A stretch of 59,463 nucleotides of DNA from the sequence record MK672798.1; one strand, written 5' to 3'. The position numbers and the translations under genes were made by a program. The DNA comes from Escherichia phage Skure. Positions within the stretch are counted from its first letter, which is position 1; every line of letters starts with the position of its first letter. Positions 3,811-22,760 of this stretch are shown piece by piece. A model generated the notes under the pieces. The model worked only from the letters and a program-made list of their open reading frames with translations. It was not told the origin of the DNA and ran no database searches.

Positions 3811-4683
3811 ATGAAAAAGAGTTCTGTAGCTATTAGTGTTGGTATGGCTTTAATTAATCCACGCGCTCGCGGTGAAGGTGATGTGGAACTGGAATACGAA
3901 TATGCATCTGCGGAAGAGATCCCGGCAGAGTTTGCAACTCTTTACGCAGAGCAGGGCGGTAAATACGTTCTTGCAAAAGTTAAAGGTGTAGCCCCTGCTG
4001 ATAGCGTTCGTCGTCTGGAAAGTGCATTGGCAAAAGAACGTAACGACCATCGTCAGGTGAAGCAACAGATTAGCGCACTTGGGCGTCCGGTTGAAGAAGT
4101 CCTTGCGGACCTTGATCGTATCCCACAACTGGAAGCTGCCGCTAACGGTAAAGGTACTCCGGAAGACATCGAAAAGATGGTTAAAGCTCGTCTTGCTCCG
4201 CTCGAGCGTCAATTGCAAACTGTAGCAGCTGAACGCGATTCCGTTAAGCAGGAAATTGAAGGCTACCGCACTCGCGAAACTAAAGCGAAAATTAAAGACG
4301 CAGTTATTGCCGCTGCATCCGGTGCTAAGCTGCGTCCGTCTGCTATCGAAGATGCGGTGACTTATGCACAGTTGCAAATGACCGTCGACGAGAACGGCAA
4401 TGTGGTTACGAAAGATGGGGCGGGTGTAACTCCATACCTAACCCCAGCGGATTGGCTTAACGAGATCCTCCCGAAACGTCCTCACTGGGTTGAGGGTTCT
4501 GCTGGTGGCGGTGCATCTGGTCCGGGCGCTGGCGGTCATCACGGTGAAGACCCATACAGTCACGACGGTTGGAACATCTCTAAGCAGATGAATCTCTGGA
4601 AAACTAATCAATCTTTAGCTAAACGCTTAGCTGAAAAGAATGGCGTAGATCCGCTGAAGCCTGTACGTCCTGCTAAGAAATAA
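3811..4683 (+). CDS. capsid scaffolding protein (putative)
   Basis: 290 aa, charged helical protein between portal and major capsid gene; GGAG RBS. Confidence 0.5.
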   Translation: MKKSSVAISVGMALINPRARGEGDVELEYEYASAEEIPAEFATLYAEQGGKYVLAKVKGVAPADSVRRLESALAKERNDHRQVKQQISALGRPVEEVLADLDRIPQLEAAANGKGTPEDIEKMVKARLAPLERQLQTVAAERDSVKQEIEGYRTRETKAKIKDAVIAAASGAKLRPSAIEDAVTYAQLQMTVDENGNVVTKDGAGVTPYLTPADWLNEILPKRPHWVEGSAGGGASGPGAGGHHGEDPYSHDGWNISKQMNLWKTNQSLAKRLAEKNGVDPLKPVRPAKK

Positions 4684-4697
4684 GTTGACATCCCGAC

Positions 4698-4730
4698 GTC
4701 CCTGATGTTAAGTTTCAACACATCAGGGAC
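4698..4730 (+). promoter_or_regulatory. perfect 11-bp stem-loop between scaffold and major capsid genes
   Basis: GTCCCTGATGT-(11 nt loop)-ACATCAGGGAC; no following U-tract; overlaps a TTGACA hexamer at 4685-4690. Confidence 0.45.
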
Positions 4731-4805
4731 ACGGGTTCCTAAACAGCCTTCCACGGGGAAAGGCTACCAACAGTAAACAAATCAATCCTTTTCCTGGAGA
4801 CAAGT

Positions 4806-5867
4806 ATGTCTAAATCTAAAATTATTCTGCCATTTGGTCGTGGCGAAACTGACCTGACTCGTTTGACGGATGTCATTGTCCCTGAGATCTTCACTGGTTA
4901 TGTGCAGACGCAGACCGCTGAACTTTCTGCCCTGATCCAATCCGGTGCGGTTGTGATGGACGAGCGTTTATCAGCTAACCTTGCTGGTGCAGGTCTGACT
5001 TTTAACGAGCCGTTCTATAACGACTTGAAAGATGAAGACGAAGATATCGCGGTTGATAAAGGTAATCCGTCAAAACCGTCTAATATCACTACTGGATCTG
5101 AAGTTCAGGTTCGTATGAGTCGTTCAAAATCCTGGGGTTCTGCGGATCTGGTATCAGCTTTGATTGGTAACGACCCAATGACCGCTATCGGTAACCGCGT
5201 GTCTGCGTGGTGGGTCCGCCGTCTGCAAGCTGCATACATCGCAACCTGGAAAGGTGTATTTGCTAATGCGAAGAAATCTCATAACGACGATTTGACTTTC
5301 GACATCTCTGGTTCTTCTTTTGTAAATAACCAGACCAACTTTACCGCGTCTAACTTCATCAACGCAACTGCAACGATGGGTGATGCTGCCCGCGGTCTGA
5401 CTATGATTATGGTACACTCTACCGTTCGTAACCGTATGCGTCAGTTGAACCTGATCGACTTCATTCCAGATGCTCGCGGCGAAACTCAGTTTGAGTATTA
5501 TCAGGGTCTGCGTATTATTGAAGACGACTCCATGCCACACGATCCGTCTACTGGTGTGTTTGAAAGCTGGCTGTTCGGCCCGGGCGCAACTGCAATGGGT
5601 GCTGGGTCACCGAAAGTTCCGACCGCTGTGGTGCGTGACGAAGCTGCTAACCAAGGCGCTGGTGAAGAAGTTCTTCACAACCGTGTTGAATGGATTCTGC
5701 ATCCAGTTGGGCATGCTTGGGCTGCTGCTCAAACTGCTAAAGGTGGTCCGTCTAACGCTGCTACCACTAACAACCTGGCCCATGAAGATTCCTGGCGTCG
5801 TGCGTTCCCTGAGCGCAAGCAGCTTAAAGTTGCACGCCTGATCACTCGTGAGTATCAGGGTTCCTAA
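4806..5867 (+). CDS. major capsid protein
   Basis: 353 aa; position after scaffold; followed by strong intrinsic terminator typical of a highly expressed capsid gene. Confidence 0.7.
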   Translation: MSKSKIILPFGRGETDLTRLTDVIVPEIFTGYVQTQTAELSALIQSGAVVMDERLSANLAGAGLTFNEPFYNDLKDEDEDIAVDKGNPSKPSNITTGSEVQVRMSRSKSWGSADLVSALIGNDPMTAIGNRVSAWWVRRLQAAYIATWKGVFANAKKSHNDDLTFDISGSSFVNNQTNFTASNFINATATMGDAARGLTMIMVHSTVRNRMRQLNLIDFIPDARGETQFEYYQGLRIIEDDSMPHDPSTGVFESWLFGPGATAMGAGSPKVPTAVVRDEAANQGAGEEVLHNRVEWILHPVGHAWAAAQTAKGGPSNAATTNNLAHEDSWRRAFPERKQLKVARLITREYQGS

Positions 5868-5898
5868 GGCTTCACTCAACGCTGCGCTGTAGTATTTT

Positions 5899-5925
5899 GG
5901 GGACATCTTATGTCCCCTCTTTTTT
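5899..5925 (+). terminator. rho-independent terminator after major capsid gene
   Basis: GGGGACAT-ctt-ATGTCCCC followed by TCTTTTTT. Confidence 0.6.
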
Positions 5926-5937
5926 AGGAGAACAACC

Positions 5938-6261
5938 ATGCGTTATCAACGTTATGAACGACATGACTTGATGGAAAAATCGTTGCAGGTGGAGCCAATT
6001 TCGATTACTCTCGATCCTGCTACGATTGACACCACAACTTCAGAAGTAAAAACGGTTACTGTTAAAATAAACTTTGTCCCAGGCGGAACTACAAACAAAG
6101 CGTATAGCGCGTCAGTTGACGGTTCCTCTGCTACAATTAAAGACAACGGGGACGGTACAATTACTGTGACCACAACCGAAAGCAGCGGTACTTCAAACTT
6201 GACAGTAACGTCCAAGGCAAAGGATAGTGTTACTGGTACATGTGTTATTAATGTGACCTAA
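5938..6261 (+). CDS. Ig-like (Big_2-type) domain protein, possible head decoration protein
   Basis: 107 aa, Thr/Ser/Val-rich beta-strand pattern resembling bacterial Ig-like group 2 domains; AGGAG RBS. Confidence 0.45.
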   Translation: MRYQRYERHDLMEKSLQVEPISITLDPATIDTTTSEVKTVTVKINFVPGGTTNKAYSASVDGSSATIKDNGDGTITVTTTESSGTSNLTVTSKAKDSVTGTCVINVT

Positions 6262-14863: not shown

Positions 14864-15272
14864 ATTGCCGGGCTGGCAGACACGTTTGTTAACCACAGTA
14901 AAGGAGTTGTCATCGACTCCTTTTTCTTGGGGCGAGAATGATTGCTGCACATTTGCGGCAAGATGTGTTGATGCTCAATATGGTACTAATATCTATGATC
15001 AAATCGCTGGAAAATATAATACAGAACTAGGAAGTAAAAAATTCACTTTGCAAAGAGTTGGAACCTCTTATCTTCCTTTACTTCTGGATACATACCTGAG
15101 CGAGCGGGTTGAAGCAAACTTTGCGCAAAGAGGCGATGTGGTTACATTTGAGGGAGCATTGGGCTTAACTGCTGGCATATTATGGACTGGATATGTATGG
15201 GCTATGGGTCCGAACGGTGTGGAAACATTCCCGCTTAATAAGATCAAAATTACGGATATTTGGAGGGTCTAA
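14838..15272 (+). CDS. tail assembly protein, NlpC/P60-like (lambda gpK-like)
   Basis: Start moved to ATG 14838 (GGGGGAG RBS upstream) instead of 14700; GENDCCTFAARC motif consistent with NlpC/P60 catalytic Cys. Confidence 0.5.
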   Translation: MRQVSHMSKLPGWQTRLLTTVKELSSTPFSWGENDCCTFAARCVDAQYGTNIYDQIAGKYNTELGSKKFTLQRVGTSYLPLLLDTYLSERVEANFAQRGDVVTFEGALGLTAGILWTGYVWAMGPNGVETFPLNKIKITDIWRV

Positions 15273-18200
15273 TGCCACCAGCAATAATTGGAGCAGCGAT
15301 AGCTTTAGGTGCGTCGGCTGCTGCCGCGGCTAGTATTATTTCAGCAACTACCGCTCTCGTTATTGGTATTGCTGCAACTGCGGCAGGTGCTCTTTTAACT
15401 AAGACACCAAATATGAACTTTGATGCTTACAAGGGGCAGCAAGAGCGTAAACAGGTTCTGCGTGCGGCTACAGCCTCACGTTCTGTTGTATATGGCACGA
15501 CCGTAGCGTCCGGACTATTAGCATTTGCGGAGGAAGAAGCTGGAGATCAAGATGAAGGTGAATGGATGCATCTTGTTGTTGTTCTTGCTAGTCATAAATT
15601 GGAAGGTATTGAAACGATTTGGTTGGGTGATGACGGAATTGATTGGTTTGGTGAAAACGCTACTTGGGAGTTTCATAACGACCGTCAGACTGTTGACCCA
15701 TTCATGTTAAGACATTGTCCTTCCTGGAAGGAGGATATGATTGGCAAGGGTATTGCATGGCTACGTTTAAGCTTAAAGTTTGATGCTGAAAAATTCCCAT
15801 CCGGTTTGCCAAACGTCAAGGTGTTGAAAAAGGGACGTAGAGTCTATGACCCACGTTCCGGTCAAACTGTGTTTAGCGATAACGCTGCTCTTGTTATTCT
15901 TGATTATTTCCGCACGTATTTAAAGCGCAAGGACGAGAATATTAACTGGGACCAATTCAAGGAAGCTGCTAACATCTGCGACGAGTTTGTAACTAATGCG
16001 GATAACACTACGGAAAGACGCTACCGCATTAACGGTGAGTTTGAAGTGGACGAAGCACCTGCCAAGATCCTTGATGCTATGCTTGAAGCTTGCGGTGGGG
16101 AACTAACCTATATTGGCGGTAAGCATGGTCTGTTAGTTGGTGCTTATTACGGCCCAGCCACCATGACTTTGGATGAAAGCTGCATTGCTGGGGATATCAA
16201 AATAATCCCTGAGACGTCTTATAAAGAGCGTACCAATACCATTACAGGTACATTCGTCGACCCGAAGCAAACATACGCTGAAGCAGATTTCCCTCCAGTT
16301 GTGGTTAAGGAATGGGTGGAAAAAGATGGCGGTGAAATAACGCAAGACATGGATTTCCGCTTTGTTACAAGTGAATATCAAGCTCAACGTCTTGCTAATA
16401 TTATTTTACGTCGTAAGCGTGTTGGTCGAACAATTGAAGTTCCGTGTAACATGAAGGGGTATAAATTCCGCCCAGGCATGTATGTCAACGTAACCATTTC
16501 AAATATCGGAATGAAAAACGTTGAGATGCGCGTTACTAAATGGTCATTCGATCCTAAAGGTGGGATTAATCTTGTTCTTCGTCAAGACTTCCTGGAAATG
16601 TGGGACGACGCTATTGGTAAACCAATGGAGCGCCCGGATCTGGTAGACCTTCCGTCTGGTGCTATTGCTCAGCCTCAAAACCTTCAGTATCAGGTATTGC
16701 AGATTAGCGATGTTGTGCAAGGTGTTTTAACGTGGAGCAATATTGGACAGGTAGCATATAACCGCGTAGCCGTGCGACAGGGAGGTACAACGGTTTGGAC
16801 CGCACAAGTCCCTGGCCAAAACGTTCGCGTTACTGGGCTGCTGCGTGGCGCGTATACAGCGCATGTTCAAGCGGTAGCTTATAGCGGGGCAATATCGCCG
16901 GAAGCATATCTGCAATTCAATATTCAAGCACCACCTCCGCCAACTTCTGTTGAAGTGCAACAGGGTTACTTTGCTATAAGTTTGATCCCAAAATCTGCGG
17001 ATATTGCAAACGTTAGCACGCAGTATGATTTCTGGACTTCCGGTGAAACAAGATTGTCTTCCGTGTCTACAGACATTGTAGAACGCGAAGCAACTCGTAA
17101 AGGTATGGGTGCAACTTGGACGTCGGAAGGGTTGAAGAATGACCACACTTATTACTGGTATGTCCGCACCATTAACGCTTTCGGATCATCTGCATTTGTA
17201 GAAGTAGCTGCATTGTGCTTTACAACAGCTACAGATTTGATGCCACAAATTGATTCTGAATTCAAGAAGACGGAGACTTACAAAGAGCTCACTTCAGAAA
17301 TCAAAGGCGTTAAAGACGGGATTACATCTGTCAATGAAAGCCTTGTAGACGCAGAAAAGAGACTCAGCCAGAGTATTAACAGTGTTCAGGAGACTGTGAA
17401 TGGTGTTAGTGCAACTGTGCAGGAAACAAGTAAAGCGGTAGTAACGCTCGAAGGTAAAGTTAACGCTCAATGGGGCGCTAAAATACAAGTTGACAGTAAA
17501 GGGCAAAAATACGTTGCTGGTATCCAGTTAGGTATGGAGGGCTCCGGTGGTGCTGTTCAATCTTACTTCATGGTGAGTGCAAACAACTTTGCTGTTTATA
17601 ACCCGACAAACAGCGTAGCAGAACTGGCATTTGCTGTTAAGAACGGTCAAGTGTTCATGAAGGCTGCGTTTATTGAAAACGGTACGATTGACAGTGCTAA
17701 GATTTCACAGCAAATTCAGTCAACCAATTATGCAGCTGGATCTGCTGGTTGGATGATAAATAAGAACGGTAATGCGGAATTAAATAACGTAACGATAAGA
17801 GGTACTGTATACGCTAGCAACGGGTCTTTTACTGGTACAGTCAACGCTACAAGCGGTAAATTCAAGGGTACTGTGGAAGCCACCAGTTTTGTGGGTGATG
17901 TTGCGAATATGTGTGTCATTGCTGAGTCTGCAATACCAAACACACAAACTACAAGTTCAAGAACCTGGACAAAAACTTTCAAAGACTCATCTGGTTCAAC
18001 ATTATCTAAAGACTTTGTGTTGCTATTAAGTTATAGTTTAACCGCATATACATCAAAACAGGCAAGTCGTATAATTGTGACTGCTAACATAGGGGGGACA
18101 TCAATGACAAGGAGGATTGAGCGAGCTGCTAATGGTCCTGCCATGGATGTAACCATACCTTTAGCAGTGAAAGGAAAGACAGCGTCGAGCGTGACAATAA

Positions 18201-18289
18201 GCGTTACGGAGGAATATACGAATGTCTATGGGAGTTACTTGCGCCCGTCTGTAATATTGATGACTCGCGGAACTGGTAGTTGGTCGTAA
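15260..18289 (+). CDS. tail tip / host specificity protein (lambda gpJ-like) with gpI-like hydrophobic N-terminal region
   Basis: 1009 aa; C-terminal two thirds resemble lambda J (fibronectin-like region DFWTSGETRL...YYWYVRTINAFGSSAFVE and ...KYVAGIQLGMEGS...FMVSANNFAVYNP); N-terminus Gly/Ala-rich as in lambda gpI C-terminus. Confidence 0.8.
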   Translation: MEGLMPPAIIGAAIALGASAAAAASIISATTALVIGIAATAAGALLTKTPNMNFDAYKGQQERKQVLRAATASRSVVYGTTVASGLLAFAEEEAGDQDEGEWMHLVVVLASHKLEGIETIWLGDDGIDWFGENATWEFHNDRQTVDPFMLRHCPSWKEDMIGKGIAWLRLSLKFDAEKFPSGLPNVKVLKKGRRVYDPRSGQTVFSDNAALVILDYFRTYLKRKDENINWDQFKEAANICDEFVTNADNTTERRYRINGEFEVDEAPAKILDAMLEACGGELTYIGGKHGLLVGAYYGPATMTLDESCIAGDIKIIPETSYKERTNTITGTFVDPKQTYAEADFPPVVVKEWVEKDGGEITQDMDFRFVTSEYQAQRLANIILRRKRVGRTIEVPCNMKGYKFRPGMYVNVTISNIGMKNVEMRVTKWSFDPKGGINLVLRQDFLEMWDDAIGKPMERPDLVDLPSGAIAQPQNLQYQVLQISDVVQGVLTWSNIGQVAYNRVAVRQGGTTVWTAQVPGQNVRVTGLLRGAYTAHVQAVAYSGAISPEAYLQFNIQAPPPPTSVEVQQGYFAISLIPKSADIANVSTQYDFWTSGETRLSSVSTDIVEREATRKGMGATWTSEGLKNDHTYYWYVRTINAFGSSAFVEVAALCFTTATDLMPQIDSEFKKTETYKELTSEIKGVKDGITSVNESLVDAEKRLSQSINSVQETVNGVSATVQETSKAVVTLEGKVNAQWGAKIQVDSKGQKYVAGIQLGMEGSGGAVQSYFMVSANNFAVYNPTNSVAELAFAVKNGQVFMKAAFIENGTIDSAKISQQIQSTNYAAGSAGWMINKNGNAELNNVTIRGTVYASNGSFTGTVNATSGKFKGTVEATSFVGDVANMCVIAESAIPNTQTTSSRTWTKTFKDSSGSTLSKDFVLLLSYSLTAYTSKQASRIIVTANIGGTSMTRRIERAANGPAMDVTIPLAVKGKTASSVTISVTEEYTNVYGSYLRPSVILMTRGTGSWS

Positions 18290-18296
18290 TAAATAA

Positions 18297-18326
18297 TTAA
18301 CCCCTCGTTTGAGGGGTTAATTTTCA
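18297..18326. terminator. bidirectional intrinsic terminator between convergent tail tip and lipoprotein genes
   Basis: TTAACCCCTC-gttt-GAGGGGTTAA flanked by T-rich sequence on both strands. Confidence 0.65.
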
Positions 18327-18557
18327 ATAATCAATCACACAGTTTGAAGGTGAACCAATTCGTCGGTATTCATGATCAATCTCATGGCACCATTGCCCAG
18401 TCATTGGAAGCTTTTCGGTATCATAAATTAAAGAACCGTTACCATCACGGTCTAACGGTTTTGGGATAACGCCGGAATTAGGTTTACCAGTATTCAGACC
18501 GTTACCACATGCAGTGAGGGATAAAGTTAATGCCAGCATAATTAAAGCGCGTTTCAT
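18324..18557 (-). CDS. small lipoprotein, putative receptor-blocking superinfection exclusion protein (Cor/Llp-like)
   Basis: 77 aa; signal peptide MKRALIMLALTLSLTAC with lipobox; AAGGAG RBS; opposite strand between tail tip and tail fibre genes. Confidence 0.5.
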   Translation of the reverse strand: MKRALIMLALTLSLTACGNGLNTGKPNSGVIPKPLDRDGNGSLIYDTEKLPMTGQWCHEIDHEYRRIGSPSNCVIDY

Positions 18558-18627: not shown

Positions 18628-19254
18628 GTGGGAGATATTATGGCGACTCGTTTATACGGCGTTTTATTGGATGGTTTGAATAAACCTATTATCAACGCCA
18701 CAGTAGCACTTATTTCGAAAGGAAATACTCTTACCGTATTAAACGGAAGCGAGGCAATATTCCGTACAGACGCACAAGGTGCGTATAACGTAACAGTTCA
18801 GACTGGTCGTTATAAAGTTATTATTGGACCGCAAGGTATTGAGCCATATAAAGCTGGTGAGATTGTTATTTATTCAGATAGTAAAGAAGGTTCACTAAAT
18901 AACTATCTTACTAACTGGGTCCCGGAGGAATTAACTCCGGAAGTAATTGCACAAGTAAAAGAACTTGTGGCTAATTCTGAAGCCTATGCACTCCAAGCAG
19001 GTCGATCTGCGGCTTCTGCACAAGCGGACGCTACCGATGCGCGTAACAGCAAGGCAGCTTCTGCAACGTCTGCGGCGGAAGCATTGACTTATAAAAATGA
19101 CTCAAAGGCAAACGCAGATGCAGCTAAACAAGCCCAAGCTGGAGCGGCGGGATCTGCTAACACTGCAACACAAGCTGTAACCACAGTTACTCAGCTTAAA
19201 GCTGATGTTGCTCAGTTAAAACAGATACTCAAGCAATTAAAGACTCCGCGTTGA
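18628..19254 (+). CDS. tail fibre protein, N-terminal segment
   Basis: 208 aa; Ala-rich coiled-coil C-terminal part shares composition with the start of the next ORF, which overlaps in the -1 frame. Confidence 0.55.
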   Translation: MGDIMATRLYGVLLDGLNKPIINATVALISKGNTLTVLNGSEAIFRTDAQGAYNVTVQTGRYKVIIGPQGIEPYKAGEIVIYSDSKEGSLNNYLTNWVPEELTPEVIAQVKELVANSEAYALQAGRSAASAQADATDARNSKAASATSAAEALTYKNDSKANADAAKQAQAGAAGSANTATQAVTTVTQLKADVAQLKQILKQLKTPR

Positions 19255-20612
19255 CTGAAGTCGCAACAGCTAAAGCCGACGCAGTCAAAGAAGTTAATAC
19301 AGCTAAAACATCGGGTGTTGCTGCGGTCAACACCGCTAAGACGGAAGCAATTAATGCAATAACCCCGCTAAAAGACGCTGCCGCAGCTTCTGCAACTCAA
19401 GCGGGTGCTAGTGCAACCGAAGCGGTGAAACAAGCTACAGCAGCCGCAGGCAGCGCTGCAACCGCAGGGCAGAAAGCTACCCTAGCAACAGAGGAAGCTA
19501 ACCGCGCGAAAGGGTATGCGGATTCAATGGACCCCTCCAGCATAGCTAAACTTGATGCTGAAAATACTTTTACCAAAAAGCAGAAGTTTAACCTTAATGC
19601 AGAATTTGGGGCAAACGCTGGTAATCCTCTTTTAATCAAGAGTGTTAACCCAACAATTAAATTTGAAGAAGTTGACGCCACAGGTGATGTAACTGGCTAT
19701 GTTATGGTCATGGAGGGCGGTAACATACAACTCCAGGAGAACGATACTGGTAGCACTAATGTTGTCTTTAACTACAGCGCTTCAGCTAAAACAGTCAGGC
19801 TACCATCTCACAAGACTGGTTCATTTGGGGAAGTTGGTCAGCTCAGGACAACTGGGAGTTATAGTCAAGACAGCATATTAATTAGAGCGACGGGAGCGGG
19901 TTCGGCTTACACAGCTTATACCGGATCTTCCAGTCCATCTATTGTAAGATGGCGATCAGGGCTTGCTACCAGCGGGGGCTATGCATTCTACAACTACAAT
20001 GAGGATGGCACGTATCATTCTACTCCGGTAGCCATTGGGGGTGCGGGTACTGGGATTGCAATTGCGTTCTCTACCAATATTACCGGGCGAATTACAGCAG
20101 GTGGCGGGGACGCAGGAACCGACGCTGCAACGTTTAGATCCAATGGTTCAGCGTCTTATGTTTGTAACTTAGCATCAAATGGAGTTATTCGAACCCGTGT
20201 GGGATTTAGCGACACTGTAGGGAGCTATGGATTTCAAACATATACCACAGCAGGTTCGCCTGAGTATTGGATTAGACTTCCGAGTGCTGGCGGAACCCTT
20301 GCACTGCAAGGAACATCGGGCTTAGCATATAAAAAGGCGATCAATGACGGTAATCCTATTGATGCTTTAAACCGCATCATGGCACAACGCATGGTCACTT
20401 TTATTTATAAGGACGATAAACAAGAAAGAATAAGATTTGGTATTATTGCAGAAGAATCGGAGAAAGTCACACCACAATATGTGAAGCACAATGAAGAGAT
20501 TTATGAGGATGTATACGAGGATGTTATACGAGGATGTACCTGTAGAGGTTACTGTAGATCATACCGACCCCGAAACTGGTATTACAGAACAAATCAAAGA
20601 ACAACGCATTGA
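19251..20612 (+). CDS. tail fibre protein (central/distal segment), TTG start in ORF track
   Basis: 453 aa; Ala-rich N-terminus, Gly/Ser/Thr-rich body; its C-terminus begins an intramolecular-chaperone-like region (GIIAEESEKVTPQYV); frame 0 is open from 19206. Confidence 0.6.
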   Translation: MTEVATAKADAVKEVNTAKTSGVAAVNTAKTEAINAITPLKDAAAASATQAGASATEAVKQATAAAGSAATAGQKATLATEEANRAKGYADSMDPSSIAKLDAENTFTKKQKFNLNAEFGANAGNPLLIKSVNPTIKFEEVDATGDVTGYVMVMEGGNIQLQENDTGSTNVVFNYSASAKTVRLPSHKTGSFGEVGQLRTTGSYSQDSILIRATGAGSAYTAYTGSSSPSIVRWRSGLATSGGYAFYNYNEDGTYHSTPVAIGGAGTGIAIAFSTNITGRITAGGGDAGTDAATFRSNGSASYVCNLASNGVIRTRVGFSDTVGSYGFQTYTTAGSPEYWIRLPSAGGTLALQGTSGLAYKKAINDGNPIDALNRIMAQRMVTFIYKDDKQERIRFGIIAEESEKVTPQYVKHNEEIYEDVYEDVIRGCTCRGYCRSYRPRNWYYRTNQRTTH

Positions 20613-20805
20613 ACAGAAATTTATTCGTCGTGAAGTCGAGAAGAAAATTGTTTCACAGAAGACCCGAGACAGACCTTCAATTGATACTAACCCTATTGTT
20701 ATGGACTTGATGGGCGCCACTCAAGCGCTCAAAGCAGAAATTGATAGTTTGAAAGCGGAGATAGCTGCGTTGAAGGGCAATGTGGTTAATAACAATCTGC
20801 CATAA
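20491..20805 (+). CDS. C-terminal intramolecular chaperone-like segment of the tail fibre, in +1 frame relative to 19251-20612
   Basis: Ends ...ALKAEIDSLKAEIAALKG, resembling the tail-fibre intramolecular chaperone C-terminus; frame joins the upstream ORF if one T is removed from the tandem repeat at 20505-20540. Confidence 0.45.
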   Translation: MKRFMRMYTRMLYEDVPVEVTVDHTDPETGITEQIKEQRIEQKFIRREVEKKIVSQKTRDRPSIDTNPIVMDLMGATQALKAEIDSLKAEIAALKGNVVNNNLP

Positions 20806-20816
20806 CCACAATAATT

Positions 20817-20845
20817 AAGGAGCCAAACGGCTCCTTTTTTTTTTT
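20817..20845 (+). terminator. rho-independent terminator after tail fibre genes
   Basis: AAGGAGCC-aaac-GGCTCCTT followed by ten T. Confidence 0.75.
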
Positions 20846-21066
20846 AGTTGTCACTTTCTCACCTACCTGCGACCGCACCGCGTTTAAACATAACTCCCTC
20901 CTTTTGTTCAAGTCGTGACGTCCATTGCATTATAAGGGTACCAATGCCAGGCTATTTACAATTTATTTACACGCATATCATGGTAAATAATATGTTAACG
21001 AGTATACTTACCAGCGTAACCCGTTGGTTACATCCGCTTAACAAATCCATATATGGAGATTTTCCT

Positions 21067-21774
21067 ATGTCTGACATGACTCTTTTACCTACTAATCTCG
21101 GTGGCGACGGTTTCGGTGGTGAAGCTGGTGCGGCTGGTATCGGTGGCGCGATCGGTGGCTTAATTGGTTCCTGGATCGGTAATGGTTGGGGTGGCAATGG
21201 TGGTTGGGGTGGTCGCGGTAACTTCGCTGGTCCGGTAGAAGTGCAAGCTTCTGTTGACACCAACGCAATTCTGCAAGCTATCAACAACGGTACTCTTCAG
21301 ACCATTCAGGGGTAGAACGGTACTAACCTGACTGTTGAGCGCTCCGCTGCTTCTACCTATAACGGTATTACTCAGCAGAACACTCAAAACCTGCTGGCTT
21401 CCGTTCAGGGCTTTGCTGGTCTGAACACGCAAATCCAGGGCGGCACCAGCCAAGTGCTCGCGGCTCTGTGTAACAACGAAGCAGCTAACATTACCCGCTC
21501 CTTCCAGGCTCAGTTAGAAGCTCAGAAGTGTTGCTGCGAAACCAACCTGAACATCGAGCGTCAAGCAGAAGCTACTCGTGCTCTCCTGCGCGATCAGCAC
21601 GCACAAGCGCAAGCTGTTCTGATCTGTGACCTGAAGTCCCAGTTGCAGGAAGCTCGCTTTGCAAACTCTCAGTTGGCGCAGACGGCTGGCCTTACCTGTA
21701 AAATCAATCAGGTTGAGCAGTTAGTTAACTTTAAACTGCCAACTCCTCCAACTCCTCCGACTGGCTGCTGCTAA
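21067..21774 (+). CDS. Gly-rich N-terminus / Cys-containing C-terminus protein interrupted by in-frame TAG at 21313-21315
   Basis: ATG 21067 with GGAG RBS; same frame open on both sides of the TAG; coding-like composition continues 46 codons to the annotated downstream ORF 21454-21774. Confidence 0.4.
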
Positions 21775-22229: not shown

Positions 22230-22760
22230 ATGCAAAACGTAAACGCAGGAATGGGCGTAACCCAGTTCAACGGGATGAAACCGAAAAACTCCATCAACAT
22301 GGGCGGTGTTGATTGGACGTTACGTCGGGACGCTACCGATTCAACTACCATGTTCCCACACCAGAAGGTGAGCTGGCTTAATGCTGGATGTGAACCTATG
22401 GGTGATGGAAGGGTTCATTACTGTTGGATTATGGGAGTGATACCGCCTACGCCGGGCACTATCGAACGACCCGTGAATGTGATGTATGTCGGCTTCCACC
22501 AGTTCAAGATCACAATTGCTCCAAACTCCATTAGTCAGTCAGATCTTGATCGTATGCATGTTTACGTCAGCGATGGTACAGACTTCGCAGGGGATTTTAT
22601 TAGTAAGTTTCTTGGTATGCAACCAGAGCAGCCTGTAGAAGTACGCGAGCATATTAGCCCGTGGCCACCCATGATTGATCAGGAAGTGCTGCAACCAAAG
22701 ACCGCTCAAACGGTCCCTCAGAAACCGGAGCAGAAGGTGAAACCAAATGACGAAGAATGA
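22230..22760 (+). CDS. hypothetical protein
   Basis: 176 aa ORF with RBS at distal end of late operon. Confidence 0.4.
   Translation: MQNVNAGMGVTQFNGMKPKNSINMGGVDWTLRRDATDSTTMFPHQKVSWLNAGCEPMGDGRVHYCWIMGVIPPTPGTIERPVNVMYVGFHQFKITIAPNSISQSDLDRMHVYVSDGTDFAGDFISKFLGMQPEQPVEVREHISPWPPMIDQEVLQPKTAQTVPQKPEQKVKPNDEE

What the first reader, a model, noticed from the sequence alone, without database searches (positions are those of the whole stretch)
20505..20540. One-nucleotide length difference inside a 12-nt tandem repeat detaches the tail fibre C-terminal chaperone domain
The sequence GAGGATGTATAC GAGGATGTTATAC GAGGATGTACC is a near-perfect tandem repeat encoding EDVY. The second copy has an extra T that shifts the frame, so the upstream ORF ends in a short Cys/Arg-rich tail. 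The +1 frame (ORF 20491-20805) continues into a region resembling the intramolecular chaperone C-terminus of tail fibres. Removing one T restores a continuous reading frame.
Basis: seen in the sequence. Interest (0 to 1): 0.55.

Follow-up and report, generated by a model that had tools for sequence, protein, structure and literature searches.

The report
Broken side tail fibre gene
The odd repeat marks one of two frame-breaking deletions that have turned the dispensable side tail fibre gene of coliphage Skure, isolated on a laboratory E. coli K-12 strain, into a decaying pseudogene, which is an ordinary and well-known fate for such genes.

Summary
The window is Escherichia phage Skure, a Seuratvirus isolated on E. 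coli K-12 MG1655. The sequence at 20505-20541 is as described. Four close relatives (SLUR25/63, Gostya9, HK6, one Logan contig) carry one continuous tail fibre gene with four 12-nt units here (EDVY EDVY KDIY EDVP). Skure lacks 11 nt of that array, so the lesion is an 11-nt deletion and not an inserted T.

It cuts off the N-terminal tail-attachment domain 1.3 kb upstream. The gene is therefore split into three ORFs: 18640-19254, 19251-20612 and 20485-20805.

The self-cleaving C-terminal chaperone domain (Peptidase_S74) starts upstream of the repeat, at Ser 20316-20318. The deletion therefore cuts this domain in two and does not detach it.

No other conserved gene is interrupted by an indel mid-gene. 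The fibre gene differs from SLUR25 by 6 nonsynonymous and 1 synonymous change, against 176:1051 genome-wide (p=6e-5). The neighbouring gene carries an amber stop.

Best reading: a real pseudogene of a dispensable lateral fibre, like lambda PaPa stf. Nothing supports programmed frameshifting. Low interest.

The parts
18640..19254 (+). ORF1: N-terminal fragment of the side (lateral) tail fibre, 204 aa. It holds the phage_tail_N attachment domain and the start of the Ala-rich shaft. It ends in 12 out-of-frame codons (QILKQLKTPR*). Annotated as QBZ71649.1 'tail fiber protein'.
   Evidence: Pfam PF08400 84.7 bits; PHROG tail fibre families; exact match to QBZ71649.1 of phage Skure; good RBS GGGAG upstream of ATG 18640.
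19218..19221 (+). A4 run: site of a 1-nt deletion (A5 in SLUR25; the Gostya9, HK6 and Logan proteins read QLKTDT here). This is the first frameshift. ORF1's frame stops at 19252-19254.
   Evidence: Alignment A2; indel census; tblastn frame change fr1 to fr3 at 19215-19242; relatives' proteins.
19251..20612 (+). ORF2: middle part of the fibre (shaft, receptor-binding region, first ~70 residues of the chaperone domain), 453 aa counted from an in-frame TTG that is a Leu codon in relatives. There is no start or RBS of its own. Annotated as QBZ71650.1 'putative tail fiber protein'.
   Evidence: 98.6% identical to SLUR25 residues 193-631; this frame is open only from 19206.
20313..20333 (+). Start of the self-cleaving intramolecular chaperone domain: Thr-Ser scissile pair (ACA 20313, TCG 20316) and Lys at +5 (AAA 20331), motif GTSGLAYK.
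   Evidence: Coordinates; Ser invariant and Lys nearly invariant in alignment A3 of homologues; same spacing as Thr1263-Ser1264...Lys1269 of T5 pb1 (PMC4690869).
20352..20486 (+). Pfam Peptidase_S74 ('chaperone of endosialidase') match within ORF2.
   Evidence: PF13884, 32.2 bits against a cut-off of 22, residues 368-412; coordinates.
20505..20541 (+). Remnant of the 12-nt tandem array (37 nt). The ancestral array is 48 nt: GAGGATGTATAC GAGGATGTTTAT AAGGATATATAC GAGGATGTACCT, encoding EDVY EDVY KDIY EDVP.
20524..20525 (+). Junction of the 11-nt deletion, with 1 nt (T) of positional ambiguity. This is the second frameshift.
   Evidence: Alignment A1 against SLUR25, Gostya9 and HK6; indel census.
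20526..20612 (+). Out-of-frame tail of ORF2: 28 Cys/Arg-rich codons plus the stop. It has no homologue.
20485..20805 (+). ORF3 frame: the rest of the chaperone domain, comprising a long variable insertion, the conserved RDRPSIDTNPIVMDLMG motif and the C-terminal coiled-coil helix. It is homologous to relatives from 20525 onwards. The ATG codons at 20491-20521 are fortuitous and have no evident RBS. Not found as a protein in the collection.
   Evidence: 98.9% identical to SLUR25 residues 633-725. It matches the C-terminal ends of the same PHROG profiles that ORF2 matches further upstream (phrog_1980: 129-393, then 387-438 of 449). Conserved columns in A3; PDB 8hqz_d residues 1031-1073; not in the protein collection.
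20817..20846 (+). Intrinsic terminator (8-bp GC-rich stem plus a T-run) that closes the fibre transcription unit 12 nt after the ORF3 stop.
   Evidence: sequence.

Best explanation
The finding lies in the single side (lateral) tail fibre gene of Escherichia phage Skure. In this genome the gene is a pseudogene. Intact relatives encode one 725-aa protein with three parts: an N-terminal tail-attachment domain, a shaft plus receptor-binding region, and a C-terminal Peptidase_S74 intramolecular chaperone. That chaperone trimerises the fibre and then cleaves itself off.

Skure carries two frame-breaking deletions:
- One A is lost from an A5 run at 19218-19221. Translation from the real start stops at 19254.
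- 11 nt are lost inside an imperfect 12-nt tandem array at 20524/20525. This is most simply a replication misalignment one base out of register. It cuts the chaperone domain after about 70 of 163 residues and removes the conserved motif and the coiled-coil helix where folding is thought to begin.

The expected product is a 204-aa N-terminal stub and no functional fibre. Such fibres bind O-antigen and are not needed on rough K-12, the isolation host, so the gene was free to decay or its loss was favoured.

Shown here: the lesions, the intact relatives, the domain boundaries and the relaxed-constraint signature. Inferred: absence of fibres on the virion, the mutational mechanism, and the reason for the loss.
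For: 1. Identity of the window. ORF1 and ORF2 are exact matches to QBZ71649.1 and QBZ71650.1 of phage Skure on a 59463-bp contig. Skure was enriched on MG1655 K-12 and sequenced on Illumina.
2. Intact relatives. SLUR25/63, Gostya9, HK6 and a Logan contig have one continuous ORF through both sites.
3. The three Skure ORFs map collinearly onto SLUR25 residues 1-201, 193-631 and 633-725 in frames 1, 3 and 1.
4. Genome-wide census. Against SLUR25, every other non-multiple-of-3 indel is either locally compensated, intergenic, or within a few codons of a gene end. A general sequencing-error explanation therefore fails.
5. Relaxed constraint. The fibre gene differs from SLUR25 by 6 nonsynonymous and 1 synonymous change, against 176.5:1051.5 in the other genes (pN/pS 1.9 against 0.048, Fisher p=6e-5). 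Five of the six nonsynonymous changes are private to Skure. Two of them, E567A and E594K, lie in the chaperone domain.
6. The adjacent conserved gene carries a private CAG to TAG stop.
7. The chaperone spans the break. S74 Pfam match upstream, invariant C-terminal motif downstream, both halves aligned to one PDB chain, 8hqz_d, and the architecture of T5 pb1 (PMC4690869).
8. Dispensability. Lateral fibres are not essential on K-12 (PMC8594841; PMC10743462). Lambda stf is lost rapidly, mostly by 1-nt indels in short homonucleotide runs (PMC2762979). Seuratvirus GottfriedDienst, also isolated on K-12, has most of the locus deleted.
Against: - No reads are available, so the lesions cannot be confirmed at read level.
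- The lysate was sequenced without plaque purification, so the consensus could hide a mixture.
- The published genome length (59,474 bp) exceeds the window by exactly 11 nt, the size of the repeat deletion. This could mean another assembly version lacks that lesion.
- Two overnight enrichments are too short to accumulate about 9 private changes. The decay must largely predate isolation, which weakens the 'lost because of K-12' part of the story.
- The two deletions sum to 12 nt, so ORF1 and ORF3 are in the same frame. I treat this as coincidence.
Confidence: 0.8

Rival explanations
1. Sequencing or assembly artefact. The phage has an intact fibre gene, and one or both indels were introduced by the assembly of an unpurified lysate.
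For: - The lysate was sequenced without further purification, from Nextera XT short reads assembled in CLC.
- The paper's table gives 59,474 bp, exactly 11 nt more than the 59,463-bp window.
- Tandem repeats and homopolymers are classic trouble spots for assemblers.
Against: - Illumina consensus errors at an A5 run are rare.
- No other gene in 59 kb shows an uncompensated mid-gene indel.
- Independent signs of decay that indel errors cannot produce cluster in the same locus: five private nonsynonymous substitutions against one synonymous, and a private nonsense codon in the next gene.
- Even if the 11-nt deletion were an artefact, the A-run deletion would still break the gene.
Confidence: 0.1
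2. Translational recoding. Ribosomes slip -1 at UUA AAA C (19216-19222) and +1 within 20485-20612, producing some full-length fibre. The split would then be a regulatory device that sets fibre dosage.
For: - A -1 slip of tRNA-Lys on A AAA would regenerate exactly the ancestral QLKTDT sequence.
- Both frame overlaps are open, at 19206-19254 and 20485-20612.
- Rare codons (ATA CGA GGA, AGA, CCC CGA) follow the second site.
Against: - Neither site is conserved as a shift site. All four relatives encode the protein in one frame.
- There is no canonical X XXY YYZ heptamer.
- No stable downstream RNA structure (z = -1.5 and -0.8).
- Two independent low-efficiency events would multiply to a negligible yield.
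- The excess of nonsynonymous changes argues that the reading frame is no longer under selection.
Confidence: 0.03
3. Functional split gene. ORF1, ORF2 and ORF3 are expressed as separate polypeptides, with ORF2 made by termination-reinitiation at the TTGA overlap at 19251-19254. ORF3 supplies the missing chaperone half in trans, and together they assemble a working fibre.
For: - The stop of ORF1 overlaps an in-frame TTG of ORF2 (TTGA).
- ORF3 has several ATG codons.
- Lateral fibres made of two or more proteins exist in other siphoviruses (PMC8594841).
Against: - The TTG is simply the ancestral Leu codon. No RBS precedes ORF2 or ORF3.
- ORF2 would lack the tail-attachment domain.
- The S74 chaperone works as an intramolecular, C-terminally nucleated trimer (PMC4690869).
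- ORF2 ends in 28 nonsense residues.
- No relative shows this arrangement.
- The relaxed-constraint signature.
Confidence: 0.03
4. Reversible on/off switch. The homopolymer and the tandem array act as mutational hot spots that let the phage population toggle a 'disposable' fibre, as proposed for lambda stf.
For: - Lambda stf is inactivated at high rate by indels in short homonucleotide runs, and a gain/loss cycle has been proposed (PMC2762979).
- One Skure lesion is of exactly this type.
Against: - The A-run is only 4-5 nt long.
- The repeat unit is 12 nt, so ordinary slippage stays in frame.
- Copy number is identical in all relatives.
- Two lesions plus five amino-acid changes make reversion very unlikely.
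Confidence: 0.04

Closest known systems
Lambda PaPa stf frameshift (orf401/orf314) and experimentally selected stf loss mutants
   Same: - A dispensable side tail fibre gene with the same N-terminal attachment domain (Pfam phage_tail_N) is split into consecutive ORFs by a small deletion.
- The lesion type matches: in lambda, 15 of 19 stf-mutant clones (out of 21 sequenced) carried frameshifts, most in short homonucleotide runs (PMC2762979; PMC8594841).
- In both cases the phage was propagated on E. coli K-12.
   Different: - Skure has two frameshifts plus an excess of amino-acid changes, so the decay is older or deeper.
- Its fibre uses a self-cleaving S74 chaperone instead of a separate Tfa assembly protein.
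- Skure is a virulent Seuratvirus, not a lambdoid phage.
T5-type L-shaped tail fibre pb1 / DT57C LtfA with C-terminal intramolecular chaperone (Peptidase_S74, PF13884; PDB 8hqz_d; T5 pb1 structure paper PMC4690869)
   Same: - Thr-Ser...Lys(+5) cleavage motif, S74 core, conserved RDRPSxDxNPIVMDLxG motif and terminal coiled-coil helix.
- The distal ~1.65 kb is 95% identical in DNA to the ltfA gene of the T5-like phages Gostya9 and HK6.
   Different: - In Skure the domain is interrupted and cannot be made as one chain.
- This clade carries a ~45-residue insertion, beginning with the EDVY repeats, between the S74 core and the conserved C-terminal motif. DT57C LtfA has 3 residues there.
Intact orthologue: side tail fiber SOE45391.1 of Escherichia phage vB_Eco_SLUR25/SLUR63
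   Same: Same gene at the same genomic position. It is 99.7% identical at the aligned nucleotides, with 7 substitutions in 2166 nt.
   Different: SLUR25 has A5 and the full four-unit array, giving a 725-aa continuous ORF.
Lateral fibre locus deletion in Seuratvirus GottfriedDienst (Bas21)
   Same: Another K-12-isolated Seuratvirus that retains only an N-terminal ~193-aa fibre stub. Homology to Skure ends at 19206 and resumes at 21728.
   Different: The loss is by a large deletion or replacement rather than by point frameshifts, and the phrog_9288 gene is almost entirely gone as well.

Membership tests
Peptidase_S74 intramolecular chaperone domain of tail fibres/endosialidases | Significant match to Pfam PF13884 | tested here: met
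   32.2 bits against a gathering score of 22, ORF2 residues 368-412. SLUR25 full-length protein scores 31.9 bits.
Peptidase_S74 intramolecular chaperone domain of tail fibres/endosialidases | Scissile Ser with catalytic Lys five residues downstream, at the domain's N-terminal boundary | tested here: met
   GTSGLAYK at 20313-20333. Ser invariant and Lys nearly invariant in A3. Same spacing as T5 pb1 Ser1264/Lys1269.
Peptidase_S74 intramolecular chaperone domain of tail fibres/endosialidases | Complete domain, ending in the C-terminal coiled-coil helix, on the same polypeptide as the fibre | tested here: not met
   In Skure the last ~93 residues, including the RDRPSIDTNPIVMDLMG motif and the helix, are in another frame. 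The feature is met in all four relatives.
Peptidase_S74 intramolecular chaperone domain of tail fibres/endosialidases | Autoproteolytic release after trimer folding | not testable with these tools
   Needs protein expression.
Lambda Stf-type side tail fibre | N-terminal phage_tail_N attachment domain (PF08400), encoded downstream of the J-like tip protein | tested here: met
   84.7 bits against a cut-off of 26.6. The J-like protein lies at 15260-18289 with Phage_Tail_Tip and Ig_J domains.
Pseudogene of a dispensable fibre (lambda PaPa stf type) | Frame-disrupting lesions relative to intact close orthologues | tested here: met
   A 1-nt and an 11-nt deletion.
Pseudogene of a dispensable fibre (lambda PaPa stf type) | Relaxed selective constraint compared with the rest of the genome | tested here: met
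   6 nonsynonymous: 1 synonymous against 176.5: 1051.5, Fisher p=6e-5. Five of the six nonsynonymous changes are private to Skure. The counts are small.
Pseudogene of a dispensable fibre (lambda PaPa stf type) | Virions lack the fibre yet remain infectious on the isolation host | not testable with these tools
   Infectivity on MG1655 is implied by the isolation. Fibre absence needs EM or mass spectrometry.
Programmed ribosomal frameshift site | Shift requirement and slippery site conserved among relatives | tested here: not met
   Relatives are in one frame at both positions.
Programmed ribosomal frameshift site | Canonical slippery heptamer and/or a stimulatory downstream structure | tested here: not met
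   Only an A AAA tetramer is present. Fold z-scores are -1.5 and -0.8.
Phase-variable (contingency) simple-sequence repeat | Repeat whose unit slippage changes the frame, with copy number varying among isolates | tested here: not met
   The unit is 12 nt, so slippage stays in frame. All relatives have exactly four units. The A-run is only 4-5 nt long.

The most novel reading that the evidence does not exclude
The two lesions are not dead ends. A low level of -1 slippage at UUA AAA C plus a +1 event in the rare-codon stretch after the repeat, or frequent reversion at these two mutable sites, would let a minority of Skure virions carry full-length lateral fibres. That would be a bet-hedging 'disposable fibre' switch of the kind proposed for lambda stf.
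Probability: 0.04. Interest if true: 0.55.

Novelty: new member of a known kind. Interest (0 to 1): 0.15.

Why it matters
The main value is for annotation and data hygiene.

- **Annotation.** Skure's two deposited 'tail fiber' proteins (QBZ71649.1, QBZ71650.1) and the unannotated ORF3 are fragments of one dead gene. They should not be used as independent receptor-binding proteins in host-range prediction or engineering sets.
- **Isolation bias.** This is another documented case showing that phages isolated on rough K-12 hosts often carry defective lateral fibres. Their apparent host range may therefore understate that of their wild relatives.
- **Module exchange.** The locus shows that a fibre module is shared at ~95% DNA identity between a Seuratvirus and T5-like phages.

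No new mechanism is implied.

Tried and rejected
**Searches that led nowhere**
- Exact-pattern scans for the deletion junction and for the repeat's upstream flank found nothing in IMG/VR, JGI metagenomes or GTDB genomes. No independent sighting of either allele was obtained there.
- The large protein search did not return the closest relatives. It gave only 36-46% identical S74 domains, which were still useful for locating conserved motifs.
- Two tool calls failed on a too-short search term.
- A first polarisation script loaded the wrong sequence and was rerun.

**Readings considered and rejected**
- Programmed frameshifting: not conserved, no heptamer, no structure.
- A phase-variable repeat: 12-nt unit, invariant copy number.
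- A trans-acting split chaperone: no RBS, an intramolecular mechanism, and the decay signature.
- The net -12 nt as a compensating pair: ruled out because ORF1's frame hits a stop 12 codons after the first deletion.

Structure prediction was not run. The restored domain is not a sequence of the window, and a monomer model of an intertwined trimer would add little beyond the alignments to PDB 8hqz_d and the T5 pb1 description.
Full report
**What is in the sequence**

At 20505-20541 the window reads GAGGATGTATAC GAGGATGTTATAC GAGGATGTACCT. Tandem Repeats Finder reports this as the only array in the gene region (20505-20537, period 13, 2.6 copies, score 59).

ORF 19251-20612 reads EDVYEDV through the repeat. 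It then runs into 28 Cys/Arg-rich codons and a stop at 20610-20612. The +1 frame is open from 20485 to the stop at 20803-20805.

**What the window is**

ORF 18640-19254 and ORF 19251-20612 are exact matches to QBZ71649.1 ('tail fiber protein', 204 aa) and QBZ71650.1 ('putative tail fiber protein', 453 aa) of Escherichia phage Skure. The contig is 59,463 bp, the length of the window.

Skure is a Seuratvirus (Queuovirinae). It was obtained from Danish wastewater by two overnight liquid enrichments on E. coli K-12 MG1655. It was sequenced from the lysate without further purification, on Illumina NextSeq with Nextera XT (PMC7552041; preprint). The paper does not mention a frameshift.

**Comparison with relatives**

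The region 19251-20900 is 99% identical to SLUR25/SLUR63 (Seuratvirus). It is ~95% identical to the ltfA L-shaped tail fibre genes of the T5-like phages Gostya9 and HK6.

- In SLUR25 the whole locus is one 2178-nt 'side tail fiber' CDS of 725 aa.
- In Gostya9 it is the C-terminal ~60% of an 889-aa LtfA.
- In HK6 an 885-aa ORF is intact although unannotated.
- A fourth relative, from a Logan assembly, is also a continuous 725-aa protein.

All four read EEIY EDVY EDVY KDIY EDVP. At DNA level this is four 12-nt units. Skure lacks 11 nt of this array (TTATAAGGATA; junction 20524/20525).

The 'extra T' is therefore what remains after an 11-nt deletion spanning the end of unit 2 and most of unit 3. 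The endpoints share only 1 nt. This is most simply a replication misalignment one base out of register in a TAT/ATA-rich imperfect repeat (inference).

Upstream, SLUR25 has CAGTTAAAAACAG where Skure has CAGTTAAAACAG. One A is lost from an A5 run at 19218-19221.

This shifts the frame of the true start. ATG 18640 has a good GGGAG ribosome-binding site. Translation from it ends at 19252-19254 after 12 aberrant codons.

tblastn of the SLUR25 protein shows the three Skure pieces in frames 1, 3 and 1. They cover residues 1-201, 193-631 and 633-725.

The two deletions sum to 12 nt, so ORF1 and ORF3 share a frame. This cannot rescue anything, because the shifted frame stops almost at once.

**Where the chaperone domain lies**

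Pfam finds phage_tail_N in ORF1 and Peptidase_S74 in ORF2 residues 368-412, which is 20352-20486.

The motif GTSGLAYK (20313-20333) has the Thr-Ser scissile pair and a Lys five residues later. This matches T5 pb1 Thr1263-Ser1264...Lys1269 (PMC4690869). The Ser is invariant and the Lys nearly invariant among homologues.

The T5 chaperone consists of a loop, a mixed alpha/beta hairpin, a long beta-hairpin 'tentacle' and a C-terminal helix. That helix forms the central trimeric coiled coil, where folding is proposed to begin.

In Skure the conserved RDRPSIDTNPIVMDLMG motif and the ATQALKAEIDSLKAEIAALKG helix are encoded after the break, in ORF3's frame. Further evidence that the break is internal to one domain:

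- One PDB chain (8hqz_d, 'L-shaped tail fiber assembly') aligns to both halves. Residues 944-1027 align upstream of the break and 1031-1073 downstream.
- The same PHROG tail-fibre profiles are matched by ORF2, and then at their C-terminal ends by ORF3.

The deletion therefore bisects the chaperone domain after roughly 70 of 163 residues. It does not detach it. The EDVY units open a ~45-residue insertion specific to this clade, at a position where DT57C-type fibres have three residues. Its correspondence to the 'tentacle' hairpin is an inference.

**Real mutation or sequencing error?**

I compared the whole window with SLUR25.

- Every other indel that is not a multiple of three is one of three things: paired with a compensating indel within a few bases, intergenic, or within the last or first few codons of a gene.
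- In a tblastn census of all 89 SLUR25 proteins, only two conserved genes are interrupted. One is the fibre gene. The other is the gene immediately downstream, which has one in-frame stop.
- The fibre gene differs from SLUR25 by only 7 substitutions. Six are nonsynonymous.
- The other ungapped genes together show 176.5 nonsynonymous against 1051.5 synonymous differences. This gives pN/pS 0.048 against ~1.9 for the fibre gene, Fisher p = 6e-5.
- Using the other relatives as outgroups, five of the six amino-acid changes are private to Skure: H57R, T191A, T387R, E567A and E594K. The last two are in the chaperone domain.

This is the signature of a gene that has stopped being selected. Indel errors in an assembly would not produce it. 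I therefore take the lesions as real (confidence about 0.8).

One caveat remains. The paper's table gives the genome as 59,474 bp, exactly 11 nt longer than the window. I cannot tell whether this is coincidence, for example end trimming, or a sign that another assembly version carries the full repeat. Even in the latter case the A-run deletion would still break the gene.

**Why the gene can be lost**

- Lateral fibres of T5-like and small siphoviruses bind O-antigen as a primary receptor. They are not essential on K-12, which lacks O-antigen (PMC8594841; PMC10743462).
- Laboratory lambda PaPa lacks side fibres because of a mutation in stf. My own knowledge: Hendrix and Duda 1992 showed this to be a 1-nt deletion that splits stf into orf401 and orf314.
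- When lambda stf+ is grown in agar, fibre-less mutants take over. Nineteen of 21 clones had stf mutations and 15 were frameshifts, most in short homonucleotide runs (PMC2762979). The A5 to A4 lesion in Skure is exactly of this type.
- Within the genus, GottfriedDienst (also isolated on K-12) retains only a 193-aa N-terminal stub. Its homology to Skure stops at 19206 and resumes at 21728.
- About nine private changes are too many for two overnight cultures. Most of the decay probably predates isolation, and enrichment on a rough host merely permitted recovery of the phage (inference).

**Alternatives**

- Programmed frameshifting is not supported. Relatives need no shift. There is only an A AAA tetramer and no X XXY YYZ heptamer. 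The RNA downstream of either site folds no better than shuffled sequence (z = -1.5 and -0.8).
- A phase-variable repeat is not supported. The unit is 12 nt and the copy number is fixed at four in all relatives.
- A functional three-protein fibre is unlikely. ORF2's TTG is the ancestral Leu codon, overlaps the ORF1 stop as TTGA, and has no ribosome-binding site. ORF3's ATGs also lack one. ORF2 would lack the attachment domain, and the S74 chaperone acts within one chain.

**Comparison with the known, and verdict**

This is a new example of a well-known phenomenon: inactivation of a dispensable side or lateral tail fibre gene by small frameshifting deletions. The intact ancestor is a standard Stf-type fibre with a Peptidase_S74 intramolecular chaperone, and it shares its distal module with T5-like LtfA proteins.

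It is wrong on the nature of the lesion and on the domain boundary, and it missed the upstream frameshift.

Interest is low (0.15). The practical value is to flag QBZ71649.1 and QBZ71650.1 as pseudogene fragments.

Noticed in passing
window 21067-21774 (amber codon at 21313-21315): The gene immediately downstream of the fibre has its own promoter-like site at 20966-20993 and an RBS. It belongs to phrog_9288 (function unknown) and has a Gly-rich N-terminus and a Cys-rich C-terminus. It carries a private CAG to TAG nonsense codon relative to SLUR25 and is split into ORFs ending at 21315 and starting at 21454. It is otherwise under strong purifying selection (15 synonymous : 1 nonsynonymous). It is conserved across Queuovirinae, Drexlerviridae (annotated 'putative sugar-binding protein' in BASEL phages) and some T5-like phages. 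It is the only other interrupted conserved gene in the genome, so it may belong functionally to the lateral fibre apparatus.
   Followed up: partly
whole window (length): The Skure paper lists the genome as 59,474 bp. The window, and the contig behind the deposited proteins, is 59,463 bp. The 11-nt difference equals the size of the repeat deletion. This is unexplained: it could be end trimming or a different assembly version.
   Followed up: no
window ~19150-20900; L002 (Gostya9), L003 (HK6): The distal ~1.65 kb of the fibre gene (shaft end, receptor-binding region, chaperone) is ~95% identical in DNA between Seuratviruses (Skure, SLUR25/63) and the T5-like Tequintaviruses Gostya9 and HK6. This looks like recent exchange of a host-recognition module between different phage families. 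In the HK6 record the intact 885-aa fibre ORF (L003 1876-4533) is not annotated.
   Followed up: partly
L006 (GottfriedDienst) 4128-5289; L007 (Seurat) 4311-6119: Other Seuratviruses have rearranged lateral fibre loci. GottfriedDienst keeps a 193-aa N-terminal stub and lacks nearly all of the phrog_9288 gene. In Seurat, homology to Skure stops at 18962 and resumes at 22569. The C-terminus of Skure's 22230-22760 protein matches the end of the Seurat-type fibre family (phrog_4128), which suggests a deletion or fusion history.
   Followed up: partly
window 18324-18557 (- strand) and 18295-18322: A small lipoprotein gene (phrog_12984, 77 aa) sits on the opposite strand between the J-like tip protein and the fibre gene. 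It is bounded by a 12-bp-stem terminator-like hairpin. In phage Seurat the counterpart is annotated as an 'apparent moron' behind a bidirectional terminator. It may be a superinfection-exclusion lipoprotein.
   Followed up: no
window 19251-19254: The stop codon of the N-terminal fragment overlaps an in-frame TTG of the next ORF (TTGA). This resembles a termination-reinitiation junction, but it is a by-product of the frameshift, because the TTG is a Leu codon in relatives.
   Followed up: yes
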